Origin: a virus
Taxonomy: Duplodnaviria; Heunggongvirae; Uroviricota; Caudoviricetes
IMG/VR virus record: IMGVR_UViG_2711768031_000001
DNA length: 12,100 nucleotides
Strand: one strand, 5' to 3'
The notes under the pieces are model-generated. The model ran no database searches, was not told where the DNA came from, and saw only the letters and a program-made list of their open reading frames with translations. This document shows positions 1 to 9,198 of the stretch, piece after piece. Position 1 is the first letter of the stretch. Each line of letters begins with the position of its first letter. The translations under genes and the position numbers were made by a program.

Positions 1-1254
1 ATGCTGGAACAAATGGGCATTGCCGCGAAGCAAGCCTCGTATAAATTAGCGCAACTCTCCAGCCGCGAAAAAAATCGCGTGCTGGAAAAAATCGCCGATG
101 AACTGGAAGCACAAAGCGAAATCATCCTCAACGCTAACGCCCAGGATGTTGCTGACGCGCGAGCCAATGGCCTTAGCGAAGCGATGCTTGACCGTCTGGC
201 ACTGACGCCCGCACGGCTGAAAGGCATTGCCGACGATGTACGTCAGGTGTGCAACCTCGCCGATCCGGTGGGGCAGGTAATCGATGGCGGCGTACTGGAC
301 AGCGGCCTGCGTCTTGAGCGTCGTCGCGTACCGCTGGGGGTTATTGGCGTGATTTATGAAGCGCGCCCGAACGTGACGGTTGATGTCGCTTCGCTGTGCC
401 TGAAAACCGGTAATGCGGTGATCCTGCGCGGTGGCAAAGAAACGTGTCGCACTAACGCTGCAACGGTGGCGGTGATTCAGGACGCCCTGAAATCCTGCGG
501 CTTACCGGCGGGTGCCGTGCAGGCGATTGATAATCCTGACCGTGCGCTGGTCAGTGAAATGCTGCGTATGGATAAATACATCGACATGCTGATCCCGCGT
601 GGTGGCGCTGGTTTGCATAAACTGTGCCGTGAACAGTCGACAATCCCGGTGATCACAGGTGGTATAGGCGTATGCCATATTTACGTTGATGAAAGTGTAG
701 AGATCGCTGAAGCATTAAAAGTGATCGTCAACGCGAAAACTCAGCGTCCGAGCACATGTAATACGGTTGAAACGTTGCTGGTGAATAAAAACATCGCCGA
801 TAGCTTCCTGCCCGCATTAAGCAAACAAATGGCGGAAAGCGGCGTGACATTACACGCAGATGCAGCTGCACTGGCGCAGTTGCAGGCAGGCCCTGCGAAG
901 GTGGTTGCTGTTAAAGCCGAAGAGTATGACGATGAGTTTCTGTCATTAGATTTGAACGTCAAAATCGTCAGCGATCTTGACGATGCCATCGCCCATATTC
1001 GTGAACACGGCACACAACACTCCGATGCGATCCTGACCCGCGATATGCGCAACGCCCAGCGTTTTGTTAACGAAGTGGATTCGTCCGCTGTTTACGTTAA
1101 CGCCTCTACGCGTTTTACCGACGGCGGCCAGTTTGGTCTGGGTGCGGAAGTGGCGGTAAGCACACAAAAACTCCACGCGCGTGGCCCAATGGGGCTGGAA
1201 GCACTGACCACTTACAAGTGGATCGGCATTGGTGATTACACCATTCGTGCGTAA
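1..1254 (+). CDS. proA: gamma-glutamyl phosphate reductase (glutamate-5-semialdehyde dehydrogenase), apparently complete
   Basis: 417-aa ORF beginning at the ATG at position 1 and ending with TAA at 1252-1254. The translation ([21 protein letters not shown] ... [15 protein letters not shown]) matches E. coli ProA as I recall it. Position immediately upstream of thrW matches the known proA-thrW arrangement. Confidence 0.95.
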
Positions 1255-1299
1255 ATAAAACCGGGTGATGCAAAAGTAGCCATTTGATTCACAAGGCCA

Positions 1300-1328
1300 T
1301 TGACGCATCGCCCGGTTAGTTTTAACCT
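1300..1328 (+). promoter_or_regulatory. candidate sigma70 promoter for thrW (-35 TTGACG at 1300-1305, 17-bp GC-rich spacer, weak -10 TAACCT at 1323-1328)
   Basis: Hexamers read directly from the sequence about 40 nt upstream of the tRNA. The -10 element is weak, so the call is tentative. Confidence 0.3.
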
Positions 1329-1368
1329 TGTCCACCGTGATTCACGTTCGTGAACATGTCCTTTCAGG

Positions 1369-4468: not shown

Positions 4469-5145
4469 CGCCATTGCTCCCCAAATACAAAACCAATTTC
4501 AGCCAGTGCCTCGTCCATTTTTTCGATGAACTCCGGCACCATCTCGTCAAAACTCGCTATATACTTTTCATCCCGCTCAACCACGACATAATGCAGGCCT
4601 TCACGCTTCATACGCGGGTCATAGTTGGCAAAGTACCAGGCATCTTTTCGCGTCACCCACATGCTGTACTGCACCTGGGCCATGTAAGCCGACTTTATGG
4701 CCTCGAAACCACCGAGCCGGAACTTCATGAAATCCCGGGAGGTAAACGGGCATTTCAGCTCAAGACCATTGCCGTCACTGCATAAACCATCGGGAGAGCA
4801 GGCGGTGCGCATACTTTCGTCGCGATAGATGATCGGGGATTCAGTAACATTCACGCCGGAAGTGAATTCAAACAGGGTTCTGGCGTCGTTCTCGTACTGT
4901 TTTCCCCAGGCCAGCGCTTTAGCATTAACTTCCGGAGCCACACCGGTGCAAACCTCAGCCAGCAGGGTGTGGAAGTAGGACATTTTCATGTCAGGCCACT
5001 TCTTTCCTGAGCGGGGCTTTGCTATCACGTTGTGAACTTCTGAAGCGGTGATGACGCCGAGCCGTAATTTGTGCCATGCATCATCCCCCTGTTCGACAGC
5101 TCTCACGTCGATCCCGGTACGCTGCAGGATAATGTCCGGTGTCAT
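4465..5145 (-). CDS. exo: lambda-type 5'-3' exonuclease (Red alpha)
   Basis: 226-aa translation ([65 protein letters not shown] ... FGEQWR) is near-identical to lambda Exo as recalled. Start overlaps the bet stop. Confidence 0.95.
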
Positions 5146-6229: not shown

Positions 6230-6304
6230 GGCTGAACTCCTGAAAATGGCTGTGAAAAAATCGCCCGCGGAATGCCAGGCTGATTCGGAAAACAGGAAAG
6301 GGGA

Positions 6305-6463
6305 TTAGTGATTCAGACCGTTGCCGCGTCCGTCGAGAAAAACTTCCACGAGCAAGTCACGGGTATAAGTGCGCTCAATGCCGCGATGCAGATAAAGTCG
6401 TCCGCGTAAATTAGCTGATGCAGTCCAGGTACCATCTTTGTGTTTGACCAGCATTCCTGGCAT
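6305..6463 (-). CDS. Kil-position small protein (52 aa from ATG 6463; alternative 68 aa from ATG 6511); function not established
   Basis: Open frame ending 75 nt upstream of the gam start. ATG at 6463 is preceded by GAGGTG at 7 nt; ATG at 6511 is preceded by AGGAG at about 6 nt. The Kil assignment rests on position relative to gam only; I cannot confirm sequence similarity. Confidence 0.45.
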   Translation of the reverse strand: MPGMLVKHKDGTWTASANLRGRLYLHRGIERTYTRDLLVEVFLDGRGNGLNH

Positions 6464-6476
6464 GACCGCACCTCGA

Positions 6477-6716
6477 TTAACGGTCTGCGTTCCGTAATGT
6501 TGATGAACCATAAAAAACTCCTGCCCGTAAGCTGGGCTGCTGAACATATTGAGACTTCTGCGCGTATTCAGGCGGTGGATGGCCGCCGGTTGTCATAACT
6601 AAGTCGCCTCGTTGAAGCGACTGAGGTATGAAGTGTTGAGTTGATTTCAGCTGGTCACACCGACGTTCACGCGTCCGTTTCACCCCTCGCACTCCCCGGA
6701 GCCTGCTGAAATTCAA
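6477..6716 (-). CDS. candidate N-like antiterminator with arginine-rich N-terminus (low confidence; non-ATG start)
   Basis: First ORF downstream of the putative pL. Frame opens at TTG 6716 with possible GTG starts at 6692 and 6683, the latter 8 nt after GGGGAG. The N-terminus (RLRGVRGVKRTRERRCDQLKS) resembles the arginine-rich RNA-binding motif of lambda N (QTRRRERRAEKQAQW). Stop at 6477-6479 lies just upstream of the Kil-position ORF. Confidence 0.3.
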   Translation of the reverse strand: MNFSRLRGVRGVKRTRERRCDQLKSTQHFIPQSLQRGDLVMTTGGHPPPEYAQKSQYVQQPSLRAGVFYGSSTLRNADR

Positions 6717-6789
6717 GCTGCGGATCTAAGCGGTCATCGCAACGGTGAATCAGGTGGTTGCCGTATCGTTGTGTTGTTGCGATATGGTG

Positions 6790-6840
6790 ATAATAGCTAT
6801 TGCTATTGGTGATATCAATACTTATTGCTATTAGTTGATG
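6790..6840 (-). promoter_or_regulatory. candidate pL promoter with OL operators
   Basis: On the minus strand: -35 TTGATA (plus 6813-6818), 17-bp spacer, -10 TATTAT (plus 6790-6795). Two copies of TATTGCTATT on the plus strand (heptamer TTGCTAT at 6800-6806 and 6825-6831, 25 bp apart) mirror the same motif pair in the cI-cro intergenic region. Confidence 0.4.
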
Positions 6841-6965
6841 TGTTTTGATATTAAATGTTTGATAGCAAAAAGAATTAATTTTGTGACTTGAATCGCATAG
6901 CGATAACTGAAGCGAGGTTATGGTGGTTTTTTTAACGGTGTGTGTGATGAGGGGAGGGCAAAAGA

Positions 6966-6994
6966 AAACCCGGCACGGTGGCCGGGGGCTTTTT
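6966..6994. terminator. bidirectional intrinsic terminator downstream of the 304-aa gene
   Basis: Stem CCCGGC (6969-6974), loop ACGGTG, stem GCCGGG (6981-6986). On the minus strand the stem is followed directly by TTTTCTTTT; on the plus strand by GGCTTTTTAT. It lies 25-50 nt beyond the stop (7019) of the 304-aa ORF. Confidence 0.6.
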
Positions 6995-7018
6995 ATAGTG
7001 TGTTAGGTAAATAGAATA

Positions 7019-7933
7019 TCAGCCTACTGTTCTAAAGATGAGAAGTGGTGTCATCCCATACGAATCACTTCCTCTACCAGCTTGTACCTTGACCATATCC
7101 AGGAAGGATTGTAATCCTGACTTGAGATCGTGTTCAGGGAAATCAGGGTTATTGATATTCTGATCTTGTACAGAATCTGGCAAGGCATCAATCAATCCAA
7201 TGACATGCCAGGTACCCGGTATGGTGCCACCATATTTTAAGGCTAAGTCATCAGGATTAATTGTTAAATATTCTTTATCAATAGACATCCACATCAGGTT
7301 GCCATTCTCATCAATAAAATCAACCTGGAGGATGTTGGGAACGATATTAATGAGTTTCTTAACTACACCAATGGTAAGCCCTGGAGATATCTCAATTTCA
7401 TCTGGGGTGAGTTTCCCTTTAAGCTTCGCTTTGGCTTTTGGGGGAAGGTTGACCGTGTTTAATTGTGCTTGGGCTATCTCACCAAAAATAGGCATAATTT
7501 TCTGAATAGTTGACACATCAAAAATGCGCATTTTTCCAACAGAATGAACAACTGAACCAAGATTCTCACCATTAAGTCCAGTTTTAATCATTCCTGCTTC
7601 ATCTAATTTATCGAGAAAATTAATTGGTAATGACCATGAAGCGTCGAAAGTTTTCTCTTGCGAATGTGTTAAGGTGTCGTCAGTCCCCACTTTTCCTTTA
7701 AGAATCTTGACGCTTAATTCAACGGATTTATTAGATTTATCTGTGTCAGAAGTAGTTTGTTTTACGCTCGTCACTACACCAGCATTGTGAAGCTGGGCTG
7801 TGAGGGAGCTAACGCGTACACGGTCTATGTAAAGAAAATCAAATAGTGAATCTGTGCTTTGTTGTTCGAGCTCCATTTTGCCAATCCTCTCTAAATTTTT
7901 CTTTTTCCTCGCGAATTCTTTTTTGCTTTTCAT
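7019..7933 (-). CDS. hypothetical protein of unknown function (304 aa; alternative start ATG 7876 gives 285 aa) at the rexAB-equivalent position; candidate phage-exclusion protein
   Basis: Long uninterrupted ORF in visibly AT-rich DNA between the cI stop and the putative OL/pL, on the same strand as cI. AGAGG lies about 9 nt upstream of the ATG at 7876. No catalytic or nucleotide-binding motif recognised by eye. A strong terminator follows. Confidence 0.7.
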   Translation of the reverse strand: MKSKKEFARKKKNLERIGKMELEQQSTDSLFDFLYIDRVRVSSLTAQLHNAGVVTSVKQTTSDTDKSNKSVELSVKILKGKVGTDDTLTHSQEKTFDASWSLPINFLDKLDEAGMIKTGLNGENLGSVVHSVGKMRIFDVSTIQKIMPIFGEIAQAQLNTVNLPPKAKAKLKGKLTPDEIEISPGLTIGVVKKLINIVPNILQVDFIDENGNLMWMSIDKEYLTINPDDLALKYGGTIPGTWHVIGLIDALPDSVQDQNINNPDFPEHDLKSGLQSFLDMVKVQAGRGSDSYGMTPLLIFRTVG

Positions 7934-8018
7934 CTATCTCATCGAAAAGTTGAATGAGTTCATCCACACCATGTGAAGGCGTCTCTGATTTCACTTTCTT
8001 CAAAATTTTCTTGAACAT
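7839..8018 (-). CDS. small highly charged ORF (59 aa) upstream of and overlapping the 304-aa gene
   Basis: First ATG at 8018 gives MFKKILKKVKSETPSHGVDELIQLFDEIDEKQKRIREEKEKFREDWQNGARTTKHRFTI, which is Lys/Glu-rich. The 3' end overlaps the start of the large ORF in another frame. The ORF-track extension to 8096 uses a TTG and would cover the candidate promoter. Confidence 0.35.
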   Translation of the reverse strand: MFKKILKKVKSETPSHGVDELIQLFDEIDEKQKRIREEKEKFREDWQNGARTTKHRFTI

Positions 8019-8049
8019 GATGATTTTCCATAGAGAACTGACTGTACAA

Positions 8050-8078
8050 ATTATGTTCTCTTTGTCACATGAAAGCAA
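8050..8078 (-). promoter_or_regulatory. candidate sigma70 promoter for the accessory two-gene insert
   Basis: On the minus strand: -35 TTGCTT (plus 8073-8078), 17-bp spacer, -10 CATAAT (plus 8050-8055), about 30 nt upstream of the small-ORF ATG at 8018 and downstream of the cI stop. Confidence 0.3.
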
Positions 8079-8167
8079 CTGTACCAGGACAAGCAAAGTG
8101 TGTCTCCAAAGATCGCTTTAATCACATGTTACAGCTTTTTTGTCAGCTTTGGTCCCATGAAGACGCT

Positions 8168-8860
8168 TTACCCATGCTTCCTGTATGTCTGCGGCATGCT
8201 CCCAATAACCTTACCGAAGATGAACACCCGGTTCATCTCGTCTTTCTCGATCGGGTCCCACGGTGAGTAGCTTTTGTTATCAGAGATGACCAGCAGCTTA
8301 TCCTTCATCATTTGCAGGCGCTTTACATGGGCTGTGTCGTCGTACAGAAACGCATAGATACCATCACCGTCGAAAGATTTAACTGTGATATCAACGAACA
8401 GCAGATCACCTGGTTCGATCGTTCCTGACATGCTGTCACCACGCACGTTAATGATGCGGATATTTTCCGCCTTCCTGCCATCGAACATGTGACGAGCATC
8501 GTCAAACGAGTACTCAACCGAGCGTAGAACTTCTACAAACTCACGGTTGATTACACCCGGCCCGGCACTGACTTCTATATCAAGAACGTCAATCTTGAAG
8601 TATTTTGAATGGCTGACAGCAGGCTTCCCTGATTGTTGACCGTCATTTCTCATCGGGCCTATGCCTGATGAGAGCCATTCTGTTCGAACACCCAATGCAT
8701 TAGCTATTTCAACAATTTTTGTTGAGCCGCGCGCGTTGCCGCTTGTCAGTCTCCAGATTGTGGGTTGAGCTACGCCAGACGCCTTTGCAAGAGCGCCTTG
8801 AGACATTCCAGATTGTTCCATCGCTAGGTTTAAGCGATCAGCAAGAGTTTCTTTTTTCAT
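8168..8860 (-). CDS. cI: CI-type prophage repressor (N-terminal XRE helix-turn-helix, C-terminal S24 LexA-like autopeptidase)
   Basis: From ATG 8860: MKKETLADRLNLAMEQSGMSQGALAKASGVAQPTIWRL (helix-turn-helix), a candidate Ala-Gly cleavage site in EVSAGPG, Ser nucleophile in VRGDSMSGTIEPGDLLFVD and Lys in HVKRL. The ATG at 8860 has no Shine-Dalgarno and sits 10 nt after a TATAAA -10, consistent with a near-leaderless pRM transcript. The ORF-track start at 8896 is probably too long. Confidence 0.88.
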   Translation of the reverse strand: MKKETLADRLNLAMEQSGMSQGALAKASGVAQPTIWRLTSGNARGSTKIVEIANALGVRTEWLSSGIGPMRNDGQQSGKPAVSHSKYFKIDVLDIEVSAGPGVINREFVEVLRSVEYSFDDARHMFDGRKAENIRIINVRGDSMSGTIEPGDLLFVDITVKSFDGDGIYAFLYDDTAHVKRLQMMKDKLLVISDNKSYSPWDPIEKDEMNRVFIFGKVIGSMPQTYRKHG

Positions 8861-8970
8861 AAGTTTTAATTTATACGCTTGCGTATTGATGGTCAAAACA
8901 CGTTTTGCTATTGCTTGGATTAATACGCATTGCTATTATTCATTCATTGCAATACCAATAGGAATTGATA
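8861..8970. promoter_or_regulatory. OR region: divergent pRM/pR promoters with operator motifs
   Basis: pR on the plus strand: -35 TTGCTT 8911-8916, 17-bp spacer, -10 TATTAT 8934-8939. pRM on the minus strand: -35 TTGACC at about 8890-8895 and -10 TATAAA at about 8870-8875. Perfect 14-bp palindromes ATACGCTTGCGTAT (8873-8886) and CAAAACACGTTTTG (8894-8907). TTGCTAT heptamers at 8905-8911 and 8930-8936, 25 bp apart as in the OL region. Confidence 0.55.
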
Positions 8971-9198
8971 ATGACAAATCAAACCATTCAACTCGCAATC
9001 AGTATTACAGGTAGTCAAAAACGACTGGCAGATCTATGCGGTGTAGCCCAACCCACAGTTTGGCGTTGGCTACACGGTGGCGGAATTGATGCCCGCTATG
9101 TAATGAAAATTGTCTCAGCCACTGGTGGAAAGATTAAACCAGCAGATATTCGTCCCGACCTCGCACCATTGTTTAACGCGAGTAATTCTGCCGCCTAA
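8971..9198 (+). CDS. Cro-like helix-turn-helix regulator of the YdaS family
   Basis: ATG at 8971 (ORF track begins at TTG 8965). Translation MTNQTIQLAISITGSQKRLADLCGVAQPTVWRWLHGG ... KIVSATGGKIKPADIRPDLAPLF follows the YdaS pattern of Rac prophage as recalled. Divergent from cI across the operator region. Confidence 0.8.
   Translation: MTNQTIQLAISITGSQKRLADLCGVAQPTVWRWLHGGGIDARYVMKIVSATGGKIKPADIRPDLAPLFNASNSAA

What the first reader, a model, noticed from the sequence alone, without database searches (positions are those of the whole stretch)
6790..6870. Paired operator motifs shared between the OL and OR regions with identical 25-bp spacing
The 10-mer TATTGCTATT occurs twice in the putative OL (6798-6807 and 6823-6832), and close variants (TTTTGCTATT, CATTGCTATT) occur twice in the cI-cro intergenic region (around 8905-8914 and 8928-8937). 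The two copies are 25 bp apart at both loci, and the surrounding roughly 45 bp align in the same orientation. A reverse-complement copy (ATAGCAA) is at 6863-6869. This is the pattern expected for cooperative repressor operators and places pL at about 6790-6818, confirming that the accessory insert lies inside the immunity region between OL and cI.
Basis: seen in the sequence. Interest (0 to 1): 0.45.

Follow-up and report, generated by a model that had tools for sequence, protein, structure and literature searches.

The report
Repressor operators of a lambdoid prophage
The repeated motif is real and marks the binding sites (operators) of this E. coli prophage's cI/Cro switch, built like phage lambda's: an ordinary design, but for a common immunity type whose operators I found described nowhere.

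Summary
TATTGCTATT lies at 6798-6807 and 6823-6832, TTTTGCTATT at 8903-8912 and CATTGCTATT at 8928-8937, 25 bp apart at both loci. TTGCTAT occurs 6 times against 1.5 expected, five of them here.

The window is an E. coli lambdoid prophage at thrW. The two loci flank cI (8168-8860) plus a variable cargo.

The real unit is a 16-bp dyad, AATASS-N4-SSTATT; the 10-mer is its centre plus right half. OL has two (6792-6807, 6817-6832) and OR three (8872-8887, 8897-8912, 8922-8937), all 25 bp apart.

The geometry mirrors lambda:
- O1 overlaps the -10 and O2 the -35 of both pL and pR.
- OR3 sits inside pRM and OR2 abuts its -35.
- cI looks leaderless.

Nine lineages from six genera keep the sites and spacing while spacers and cargo vary. 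Sister phages with an identical cI C-terminal domain but a different HTH carry AACAAC-N4-GTTGTT at the same places.

Candidate extra sites are 6861-6876 and 8951-8966 (over the cro RBS).

This is a lambda-type switch of the unstudied 'ST104-type' immunity, found in 13% of complete E. coli genomes. No binding data exist.

The parts
6790..6818 (-). pL: -35 TTGATA (6818-6813), 17-bp spacer, -10 TATTAT (6795-6790). Inferred start about 6783, reading leftward into kil/gam/bet/exo.
   Evidence: Promoter scan, 10 of 12 matches, the best in 6500-9100. The left edge of the immunity-specific segment falls at 6783/6784.
6792..6807 (.). OL1, AATAGC-TATT-GCTATT. The most symmetric site in the window (7 of 8 dyad positions). 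Overlaps the pL -10 by 4 bp.
   Evidence: An OL1 site is present at this position in nine lineages.
6817..6832 (.). OL2, AATACT-TATT-GCTATT, 25 bp from OL1. Overlaps the pL -35 by 2 bp.
   Evidence: The 25-bp OL1-OL2 spacing is kept in all nine lineages.
6861..6876 (.). Candidate third OL site, GATAGC-AAAA-AGAATT: one good half-site and one weak one (AATTCT, T instead of A at position 4). It lies 44 bp from OL2.
   Evidence: TTGATAGCnAAnnGAATT is conserved at +44 from OL2 in all nine lineages. Only the GATAGC half lies inside the immunity-specific segment. Its PWM score is only 7.6, so it remains a candidate.
6784..6873 (.). Immunity-specific OL segment: the block replaced wholesale in sister phages of a different immunity.
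   Evidence: Alignment with PhiR5_1 and PhiR47_2. The flanks are near-identical up to 6783 and from about 6874, and the core is unrelated.
6969..6986 (.). Bidirectional intrinsic terminator. On the - strand it ends the cI-cargo operon before OL.
   Evidence: Terminator scan hits on both strands. Conserved across immunity types.
7019..8018 (-). Accessory cargo in the rexAB position: DUF6414 protein (7019-7876 in RefSeq) plus a 59-aa ORF (7839-8018).
   Evidence: Pfam DUF6414, E 2.4e-10. RefSeq annotation. Among loci with an identical cI, only 3 share this cargo, and the OL-cI interval takes about 20 or more different lengths, 616-1894 bp.
8168..8860 (-). cI repressor, 230 aa: N-terminal HTH (helix 3 AQPTIWRL) and C-terminal S24 autopeptidase (Ala99-Gly100, Ser143, Lys180).
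   Evidence: Pfam Peptidase_S24 1.3e-18 and HTH_3 1.8e-6. Invariant columns in the alignment. N-terminal domain nearest to the 434 repressor in PDB.
8868..8896 (-). pRM: -35 TTGACC (8896-8891), 17-bp spacer, -10 TAAATT (8873-8868). The inferred start falls at or next to the cI ATG (8860), so the mRNA would be leaderless.
   Evidence: Promoter scan. No Shine-Dalgarno sequence between the -10 and the ATG. Inference by analogy with lambda pRM.
8872..8887 (.). OR3, TATACG-CTTG-CGTATT (contains the 14-bp perfect palindrome ATACGCTTGCGTAT). Lies within the pRM spacer and -10.
   Evidence: Invariant in all nine lineages.
8897..8912 (.). OR2, AACACG-TTTT-GCTATT. Abuts the pRM -35 and overlaps the pR -35 by 2 bp.
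   Evidence: Conserved at +25 from OR3 in nine lineages.
8911..8939 (+). pR: -35 TTGCTT (8911-8916), 17-bp spacer, -10 TATTAT (8934-8939). Inferred start about 8946.
   Evidence: Called by eye; the -35 has 3 of 6 matches, below the scan tool's threshold. TTGCnn-17-TAT(T/C)AT is kept in the relatives.
8922..8937 (.). OR1, AATACG-CATT-GCTATT. Overlaps the pR -10 by 4 bp.
   Evidence: Conserved at +50 from OR3 in nine lineages.
8951..8966 (.). Candidate fourth OR site, AATACC-AATA-GGAATT, 29 bp from OR1, at about +5 to +20 of the pR transcript, covering the cro Shine-Dalgarno sequence.
   Evidence: It was not used to train the PWM yet scores 17.1, as high as OR2 and OR3. Matches the dyad with 1 mismatch. 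Present at +78/79 from OR3 in 8 of 9 lineages. The other immunity type has its own dyad, AACCAC-GGAG-GTTGTT, at the same place.
8971..9198 (+). cro, 75 aa, YdaS/P22-Cro-like HTH. Helix 3 is AQPTVWRW, nearly the same as in cI.
   Evidence: Pfam. Alignment.

Best explanation
The motifs are the operators of a lambda-type cI/Cro switch in an E. coli lambdoid prophage integrated at thrW.

Each operator is a 16-bp imperfect palindrome, 5'-AATASS-N4-SSTATT-3'. Positions 2 and 4 of the half-site AATASS are invariant and position 3 nearly so; positions 5-6 are C or G.

**Inferred mechanism, by analogy with lambda**
- Dimers of the HTH/S24 repressor bind OL1+OL2 and OR1+OR2 as cooperative pairs, 25 bp centre to centre. 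They occlude the -10 and -35 of pL and pR.
- The dimer on OR2 abuts the -35 of pRM and probably activates the leaderless cI transcript.
- OR3, inside pRM, shuts cI off at high repressor concentration, or when Cro binds it first.
- Cro has almost the same recognition helix and so probably uses the same sites.
- RecA-stimulated self-cleavage at Ala99-Gly100 would lift repression.
- Two weaker, fixed-position sites may add a third OL site and a fourth OR site: 6861-6876, 44 bp from OL2, and 8951-8966 over the cro ribosome-binding site.

**Shown here:** the sites, their statistics, their promoter geometry, their conservation, and their co-variation with the repressor HTH.

**Inferred:** binding, cooperativity, activation of pRM, order of occupancy, OL-OR looping.
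For: 1. **Statistics.** The dyad pattern hits only OL and OR: 6 of 6 matches against 0.94 expected and 4 of 4 against 0.26 expected.

2. **Context.** S24+HTH cI is divergent from an HTH cro, with kil/gam/bet/exo to the left and O/P/ren to the right.

3. **Promoter geometry.** pL and pRM are called by the scan. O1 overlaps the -10 by 4 bp and O2 the -35 by 2 bp at both pL and pR. OR3 fills the pRM spacer and OR2 abuts its -35.

4. **Phylogenetic footprint.** Across E. coli, Klebsiella and Salmonella phages, 35 of 36 OR1-3 half-site columns are conserved against 22 of 46 spacer columns. Nine lineages from six genera keep OR3/OR2/OR1 at 0/+25/+50 and OL1-OL2 at 25 bp. The 9-bp spacers change sequence and the OL-OR distance ranges from 1379 to 2903 bp.

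5. **Natural specificity swap.** The PhiR5_1 and PhiR47_2 cI is 100% identical to this one over residues 82-230 but differs in the HTH, and their cro differs too. Their OL core, equivalent to 6784-6873, is replaced. There and in their OR they carry AACAAC-N4-GTTGTT dyads: 5 hits against 0.36 expected, none in this window, and none of this window's motif in theirs.

6. **Shared recognition helix.** cI has GVAQPTIWRL and Cro has GVAQPTVWRW.

7. **Polymorphism.** Among loci with an identical cI, all common polymorphisms fall in spacers, and half-site variants are rare.
Against: - No binding, footprint, transcription-start or reporter data exist for this repressor. I found no paper that prints these sequences.
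- The within-population polymorphism contrast is weak: half-sites 10 of 60 columns against spacer plus centre 33 of 111, p = 0.067.
- Conservation of the GCTATT halves of O1 and O2 is confounded by their overlap with the -10 and -35 hexamers. OR3 is confounded by pRM.
- The pR -35 (TTGCTT) is weak and was not called by the scan tool.
- The two auxiliary sites each have a mismatch at an otherwise invariant position. One overlaps the cro Shine-Dalgarno sequence, which alone could explain its conservation.
- The OL core was found by megablast in only 260 complete E. coli genomes against 719 for OR. This may reflect variant OLs such as L064 or the short query; it was not resolved.
Confidence: 0.88

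Rival explanations
1. The functional unit is a head-to-tail direct 10-mer (TATTGCTATT) bound in tandem, collinear between OL and OR. The ATACGCTTGCGTAT palindrome is a separate site for a different protein, for example Cro only.
For: The 10-mer is exact twice in OL, and 50 nt align directly between OL and OR at 74%. OR3 uses CG where most other half-sites use GC at positions 5-6. Distinct CI and Cro preferences are therefore conceivable.
Against: - In eight related lineages with the same recognition helix, OL1 reads AATAGC-AATG-GGTATT and the like. The 10-mer is lost and the dyad kept.
- PhiR30_1, with an identical cI, has TATCGCTATT in OL2.
- The AATACG half-site of OR3 also forms the left half of OR1 and, in relatives, one half of OL2.
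- OR3 sits exactly 25 bp from OR2, in register with the others.
- HTH/S24 repressors of this class bind as symmetric dimers. This is established knowledge; the nearest solved domain is the 434 repressor.
Confidence: 0.06
2. The repeats are by-products of promoter elements and A+T-rich intergenic composition, not protein-binding sites.
For: GCTATTAT contains the -10 hexamer at both pL and pR, and TTGCT is part of the pR -35. Both regions are A+T rich.
Against: - Dinucleotide-preserving shuffles never reach the observed counts.
- The left halves of the dyads and OR3 are conserved although they lie outside the hexamers.
- The whole set is replaced by a different dyad when the repressor HTH changes, while the flanking DNA and the repressor C-terminal domain stay the same.
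Confidence: 0.03
3. The sites belong to another regulator, such as a product of the accessory cargo, an antirepressor-linked factor or a host protein, rather than to cI/Cro.
For: OL lies next to the cargo, and no binding data assign the sites to cI.
Against: - The same OL and OR accompany about 20 or more different cargo lengths behind an identical cI. Only 3 of about 70 loci share the DUF6414 cargo.
- The sites co-vary with the cI and Cro HTH, not with the cargo.
- The cargo proteins have no DNA-binding domain hit.
Confidence: 0.03

Closest known systems
Phage lambda immunity region (OL1-3 / rexAB / cI / OR3-1 / cro; pL, pRM, pR)
   Same: - Gene order; divergent pRM and pR across a tripartite OR.
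- O1 lies over the -10 and O2 over the -35 of the early promoters.
- OR3 lies inside pRM and OR2 next to the pRM -35.
- Apparently leaderless cI; S24 self-cleaving repressor.
- Cargo and a terminator lie between cI and OL; OL and OR are about 2 kb apart.

   Different: - The operator is a 16-bp AATASS-N4-SSTATT, where lambda has the 17-bp TATCACCGCCAGTGGTA type.
- Spacing is a uniform 25 bp; lambda's spacings are 24, 23 and 20 bp (from memory).
- No N gene follows pL.
- Only two clear OL sites, plus a distant half-strength one at +44.
- A possible fourth site over the cro RBS.
- Cro is a YdaS/P22-Cro-like all-helical HTH.
Phage 434 repressor and its 14-bp operators (ACAA-N6-TTGT)
   Same: - It is the nearest solved DNA-binding domain by sequence (1sq8, 2r63, 1per; E 1.6e-5 to 6.8e-5).
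- Short conserved outer half-sites flank a variable A/T-rich centre.
- Repressor and Cro share recognition-helix residues.
   Different: - Different half-site sequence (ATAS against ACAA) and a different helix 3 (QPTIWRL).
- The similarity is distant.
- Membership of 434 immunity is excluded by the operator sequences.
'ST104-type' prophage repressor of P22-like Salmonella phages (ST104, ST160, SE1, SW-70, Para1)
   Same: - cI is 86% identical with the same helix 3.
- OR3 and OR2 are identical and OR1 differs by 1 base.
- OL1-OL2 are 25 bp apart.
- Cro is 69% identical with the same HTH.

Casjens and co-workers list ST104 as its own, unstudied repressor specificity (PMC2629481).
   Different: - Different phage backbone (P22-like podovirus, with gene 24 antiterminator after pL).
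- Different cargo (ParA-like).
- OL1 is oriented as AATAGC-ATTG-AGTATT.
- The fourth OR site is degenerate.
Phage HK022 cI and operators
   Same: The closest classically studied cI by sequence: 40% identity over the full length, mostly in the C-terminal domain.
   Different: HK022-type operators read TGAAC-N5-GTTCA. The HTH is unrelated in sequence and has a 4-residue insertion. The immunity is therefore different.
Sister immunity type of PhiR5_1, PhiR47_2 and a Klebsiella grimontii prophage
   Same: - cI C-terminal domain 100% identical.
- Same 6-4-6 dyad geometry.
- Same positions of OL and OR, including a site over the cro RBS.
- Same flanking DNA.

   Different: - The half-site is AACAAC instead of AATAGC.
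- Helix 3 is SQAAIQKI instead of AQPTIWRL.
- Spacing is 23-24 bp instead of 25.

Membership tests
Lambdoid cI/Cro immunity switch | Repressor with an N-terminal HTH and a C-terminal LexA-like S24 autopeptidase (Ala-Gly site, Ser/Lys dyad) | tested here: met
   Peptidase_S24 E 1.3e-18 and HTH_3 E 1.8e-6. A99-G100, S143 and K180 are invariant across six homologues including HK022.
Lambdoid cI/Cro immunity switch | A divergently transcribed small HTH cro gene across a short intergenic region, followed by cII-like and replication genes | tested here: met
   cro at 8971-9198 (YdaS/P22_Cro-like HTH), 110 bp from the cI ATG, followed by a YdaT-like protein, O, P and ren.
Lambdoid cI/Cro immunity switch | Three dyad-symmetric operators in OR, interleaved with pR and pRM | tested here: met
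   8872-8887, 8897-8912 and 8922-8937. pRM from the scan and pR by eye. Conserved in nine lineages.
Lambdoid cI/Cro immunity switch | OL with two or more operators of the same family overlapping a leftward pL | tested here: met
   6792-6807 and 6817-6832 overlap pL (6818-6790). A third site at 6861-6876 is only a candidate.
Lambdoid cI/Cro immunity switch | Operator sequence co-varies with the repressor and Cro DNA-binding domains (immunity specificity) | tested here: met
   PhiR5_1 has the same C-terminal domain and flanks, a different HTH, and different dyads at the same places. Reciprocal motif searches are clean.
Lambdoid cI/Cro immunity switch | Physical, cooperative binding of repressor to adjacent operators; repression of pL and pR; autoregulation of pRM | not testable with these tools
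   Needs EMSA or footprinting and reporter assays. The conserved 25-bp spacing is compatible with cooperativity but is not proof of it.
ST104-type immunity (same specificity as Salmonella phages ST104, ST160 and SE1) | The same recognition helix in cI and Cro, and the same operator half-sites | tested here: met
   Helix 3 is identical in cI (AQPTIWRL) and Cro (AQPTVWRW). OR3 and OR2 are identical and OR1 differs by one base. Cross-immunity itself was not tested.
434 immunity | 14-bp operators ACAA-N6-TTGT | tested here: not met
   The operators here are AATASS-N4-SSTATT. Only a distant domain similarity to the 434 repressor was found.
HK022 immunity | Operators of the TGAAC-N5-GTTCA type and an HK022-like HTH | tested here: not met
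   The HK022 OR read has different sites. cI is 40% identical with a divergent HTH.

The most novel reading that the evidence does not exclude
This repressor family may run a larger operator set than lambda's 3+3.

- A fourth OR site sits on the cro ribosome-binding-site DNA, at about +5 to +20 of the pR transcript. It is 28-29 bp from OR1 in 8 of 9 lineages.
- The sister immunity type replaces it with its own dyad at the same place.
- A distal OL site sits a fixed 44 bp from OL2.
- Each auxiliary site pairs one strong half-site with one carrying the same A-to-T change at half-site position 4.

If real, these would be deliberately weak, phase-fixed auxiliary operators. They could act as a downstream roadblock on pR or cro, or as anchors for OL-OR looping.

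The two half-site flavours might also partition cI and Cro preference: AATAGC dominates in O1 and O2, and AATACG is paired in the invariant OR3.
Probability: 0.4. Interest if true: 0.4.

Novelty: new member of a known kind. Interest (0 to 1): 0.3.

Why it matters
It gives a testable operator consensus and promoter map for an immunity type that is common. It occurs in 719 of 5426 complete E. coli genomes and in more than 500 IMG/VR contigs, and also in Salmonella, Klebsiella, Kluyvera, Citrobacter and Raoultella prophages. The literature I could search lists it only as an unstudied specificity.

It also points to a natural matched pair of repressors. They have identical C-terminal domains and flanks but different HTH regions, and recognise AATAGC against AACAAC half-sites. 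This pair would be a clean system for studying how HTH specificity changes.

Finally, it fixes the boundaries of the variable cargo slot between OL and cI, which helps in annotating prophage accessory or defence genes. It does not change the understanding of how such switches work.

Tried and rejected
- **Rfam.** The whole window at gathering threshold and 6300-9000 at E of 1 or less gave only the tRNA and one chance miRNA hit. No known RNA element lies in OL, OR or the pL leader.
- **pL leader fold.** Folding 6513-6785 (- strand) gave z = -1.08, not distinctive.
- **Cargo.** PADLOC on the cargo proteins gave no convincing defence-system match; the only hits are marginal PDC-S46 matches on the small ORF (best E 0.0038, 13.9 bits).
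- **Literature.** Searches for the operator strings returned only unrelated primer hits. A search for GevT/lambdoid gave nothing useful. The search for the PhiR phage names found them only in passing in one unrelated paper.
- **Polymorphism test.** Among 26-31 haplotypes with an identical cI it is only suggestive (p = 0.067). I rely on the cross-genus footprint instead.
- **Rightward promoter at 6859-6886.** I considered that the conserved TTGATAGC...GAATTTATTTT element is the -35 of a rightward promoter for the small + strand ORF seen in relatives L005 and L006. The window has no acceptable -10 and no conserved ORF there, so this is left open.
- **ORF 6477-6716 (-).** Considered as an N-like protein. 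It has no family hit and a TTG start, so it is not supported.
- **Longer cI (TTG start at 8896, 242 aa).** Rejected in favour of ATG 8860, which RefSeq uses and which fits the pRM call.

Full report
**What the window is**

RefSeq annotation of a 98.7%-identical E. coli chromosome and Pfam scans show proA, tRNA-Thr (thrW) and then a lambdoid prophage. Its order is:
- integrase, exo, bet, gam and kil (6306-6512), all on the - strand;
- a non-coding stretch, 6513-7018;
- a DUF6414 gene (7019-7876) and a 59-aa ORF (7839-8018) on the - strand;
- an HTH + Peptidase_S24 repressor (cI, 8168-8860, - strand);
- a 110-bp intergenic region;
- a small HTH cro (8971-9198, + strand), a YdaT-like 'cII', O, P and ren.

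The finding therefore concerns the two places where a lambda-type phage should carry OL and OR.

**Checking the observation**

The spacing is 25 bp at both loci. The reverse-complement ATAGCAA is at 6862-6868.

TTGCTAT occurs 6 times against 1.46 expected. Five copies lie in the two regions and one at 5019. The collinear 50-nt alignment, 6784-6833 against 8889-8938 at 74%, is the top direct repeat in the region.

**What the unit really is**

Each 10-mer is the centre plus right half of a 16-bp imperfect palindrome, AATASS-N4-SSTATT.

| Site | Coordinates | Sequence |
|---|---|---|
| OL1 | 6792-6807 | AATAGC TATT GCTATT |
| OL2 | 6817-6832 | AATACT TATT GCTATT |
| OR3 | 8872-8887 | TATACG CTTG CGTATT |
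| OR2 | 8897-8912 | AACACG TTTT GCTATT |
| OR1 | 8922-8937 | AATACG CATT GCTATT |

All neighbours are 25 bp apart.

ATAS-N6-STAT matches exactly 4 times against 0.26 expected. AATAS-N6-STATT with at most 1 mismatch matches 6 times against 0.94 expected. Every hit is in OL or OR.

**Promoter geometry**

The scan tool calls pL on the - strand (TTGATA 6818-6813, 17 bp, TATTAT 6795-6790). It also calls pRM on the - strand (TTGACC 8896-8891, 17 bp, TAAATT 8873-8868).

I place pR by eye at TTGCTT 8911-8916, 17 bp, TATTAT 8934-8939. Its -35 is below the tool's threshold, but TTGCnn-17-TAT(T/C)AT is kept in relatives.

With these calls:
- O1 overlaps the -10 by 4 bp and O2 overlaps the -35 by 2 bp, at both pL and pR.
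- OR3 fills the pRM spacer and touches its -10.
- OR2 abuts the pRM -35.
- The pRM -10 lies 7 nt from the cI ATG with no Shine-Dalgarno sequence, so cI is probably leaderless, as in lambda.

OL is therefore a mirror image of OR (OL1 = OR1, OL2 = OR2), not a collinear copy. The direct alignment works only because the sites are near-palindromic and, in this lineage, the GCTATT half happens to lie on the right on the + strand.

**Comparative evidence**

The same cI is very common. There are 509 confirmed relatives in IMG/VR, and the best 80 are 100% identical. The OR/HTH segment occurs in 719 of 5426 complete E. coli genomes.

Behind an identical cI, the OL-cI interval takes about 20 or more different lengths (616-1894 bp), and only three loci share the DUF6414 cargo. 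In those loci all common polymorphisms fall in spacers, and half-site changes are rare singletons. The column test is only suggestive (p = 0.067).

The cross-genus data are stronger. Klebsiella phage ST11-VIM1phi8.2, Salmonella phage ST160 and prophages of Kluyvera (three), Citrobacter and Raoultella encode cI with the same helix 3. All of them carry:
- OR3/OR2/OR1 at 0/+25/+50;
- OL1-OL2 at 25 bp;
- unrelated 9-bp spacers;
- OL-OR distances of 1379-2903 bp.

In the three-way OR alignment, 35 of 36 half-site columns are conserved against 22 of 46 spacer columns. In these relatives OL1 reads AATAGC-AATG-GGTATT and the like. The 10-mer direct repeat is therefore specific to the window's lineage, and the dyad is the conserved feature.

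**A natural specificity swap**

Phages PhiR5_1 and PhiR47_2 are near-identical to the window up to 6783 and again from about 6874. The 90 bp between is unrelated.

Their cI is 100% identical to the window's over residues 82-230 but differs through the HTH, GVSQAAIQKI against GVAQPTIWRL. Their Cro changes in parallel.

Their OL and OR carry AACAAC-N4-GTTGTT dyads: 5 hits against 0.36 expected, all in OL or OR. That motif is absent from the window, and the window's motif is absent from theirs.

This ties the sites to the DNA-binding helices of cI and Cro rather than to the cargo, the promoters or composition.

cI and Cro of the window share almost the same recognition helix, AQPTIWRL and AQPTVWRW. 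This is the pattern known from 434 and expected if both read the same operators.

**Auxiliary sites**

Site 8951-8966 (AATACC AATA GGAATT) was not used to train my PWM, yet it scores as high as OR2 and OR3. It lies 28-29 bp from OR1 in 8 of 9 lineages. The sister immunity type has its own dyad, AACCAC-GGAG-GTTGTT, at the same place over the cro Shine-Dalgarno sequence.

Site 6861-6876 (GATAGC AAAA AGAATT) lies a fixed 44 bp from OL2 in all nine lineages. Only its GATAGC half is inside the immunity-specific block.

Both sites pair a good half-site with one carrying T instead of the invariant A at position 4. I treat them as candidates.

**Mechanism (inferred)**

As in lambda and most lambdoid phages, repressor dimers would fill O1 and O2 cooperatively and shut pL and pR. 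The general behaviour of such switches is reviewed in PMC5977221. The OR2-bound dimer would stimulate pRM. OR3 would turn pRM down at high repressor concentration or under Cro. RecA-stimulated cleavage at Ala99-Gly100, by the Ser143/Lys180 dyad (invariant), would induce the prophage. None of this has been measured for this repressor.

**Comparison with known systems**

- **Lambda.** The architecture matches. The operator sequence, length (16 bp) and uniform 25-bp spacing differ.
- **434.** The nearest solved DNA-binding domain is the 434 repressor (E about 1e-5), but the operators are not 434's.
- **HK022.** Its cI is 40% identical, with TGAAC-N5-GTTCA operators.
- **ST104 type.** The specificity is the one Casjens and co-workers listed as 'ST104', a distinct and unstudied repressor type among P22-like Salmonella phages (PMC2629481).
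- I found no paper printing these operator sequences.

**Verdict**

The finding is correct and its interpretation sound, with three corrections: the unit is a dyad rather than a direct repeat; OR has three sites and includes the 'rival' palindrome; and the OL/OR correspondence is mirrored. It is a new, uncharacterised member of a very well-known kind of switch. It is useful for annotation and as an experimental system, but not surprising.

Noticed in passing
window 6513-6790 (- strand), especially about 6571-6632: No N-like gene lies between pL and kil, only a leader of about 270 nt. A sub-element of about 60 nt is 95% identical to phage HK225 and 82% identical to the phi80 early region. It has no Rfam match and no unusual fold energy. 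It could be a nut- or put-like antitermination element.
   Followed up: partly
window 6877-6990: A block of about 110 bp between OL and the cargo is conserved across E. coli lambdoid phages of different immunity and different cargo. It holds the palindrome ATCGCATAGCGAT (6891-6903) and a bidirectional terminator (6969-6986). The apparent 28-aa ORF (ATG 6921) is broken by variation in T-run length in relatives, so it is probably non-coding.
   Followed up: partly
window 7019-8018 (- strand); loci L007-L086: The cargo between OL and cI is a DUF6414 protein plus a 59-aa ORF, with no PADLOC match. Behind an identical cI this slot holds about 20 or more different inserts. Related phages carry HipA/HipD, GevT/GevA, ParA-like, DUF3037 or ImmA/IrrE genes there. 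It is a rexAB-like hotspot for accessory or defence genes.
   Followed up: partly
L005 1355-1558 and L006 about 1131-1339 (+ strand): The Klebsiella and Salmonella relatives encode a 67-69 aa + strand protein between OL and the shared terminator. It sits just downstream of the conserved TTGATAGC...GAATTTATTTT element. The window lacks it. That element might serve as the promoter or operator for this gene.
   Followed up: no
L066 and L070, OL1-OL2 spacer (equivalent to window about 6808-6812): Two IMG/VR contigs carry a poly-G run that lengthens the OL1-OL2 spacer by 4-5 bp, to 29-30 bp. It is either an assembly artefact or a natural spacing variant that would test the 25-bp rule.
   Followed up: no
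E. coli complete genomes: The OR/HTH segment (8700-8975) is found in 719 of 5426 genomes, but the OL core (6784-6876) in only 260 by megablast. Either many prophages of this immunity carry a diverged OL, like L064, or the short query loses sensitivity.
   Followed up: no
L002 (PhiR5_1) 1893-1932 and 4541-4610: The sister immunity type has the same cI C-terminal domain but spaces its dyads 23-24 bp apart, where this window uses 25 bp. The same cooperativity domain therefore appears to tolerate spacing differences of 1-2 bp.
   Followed up: no
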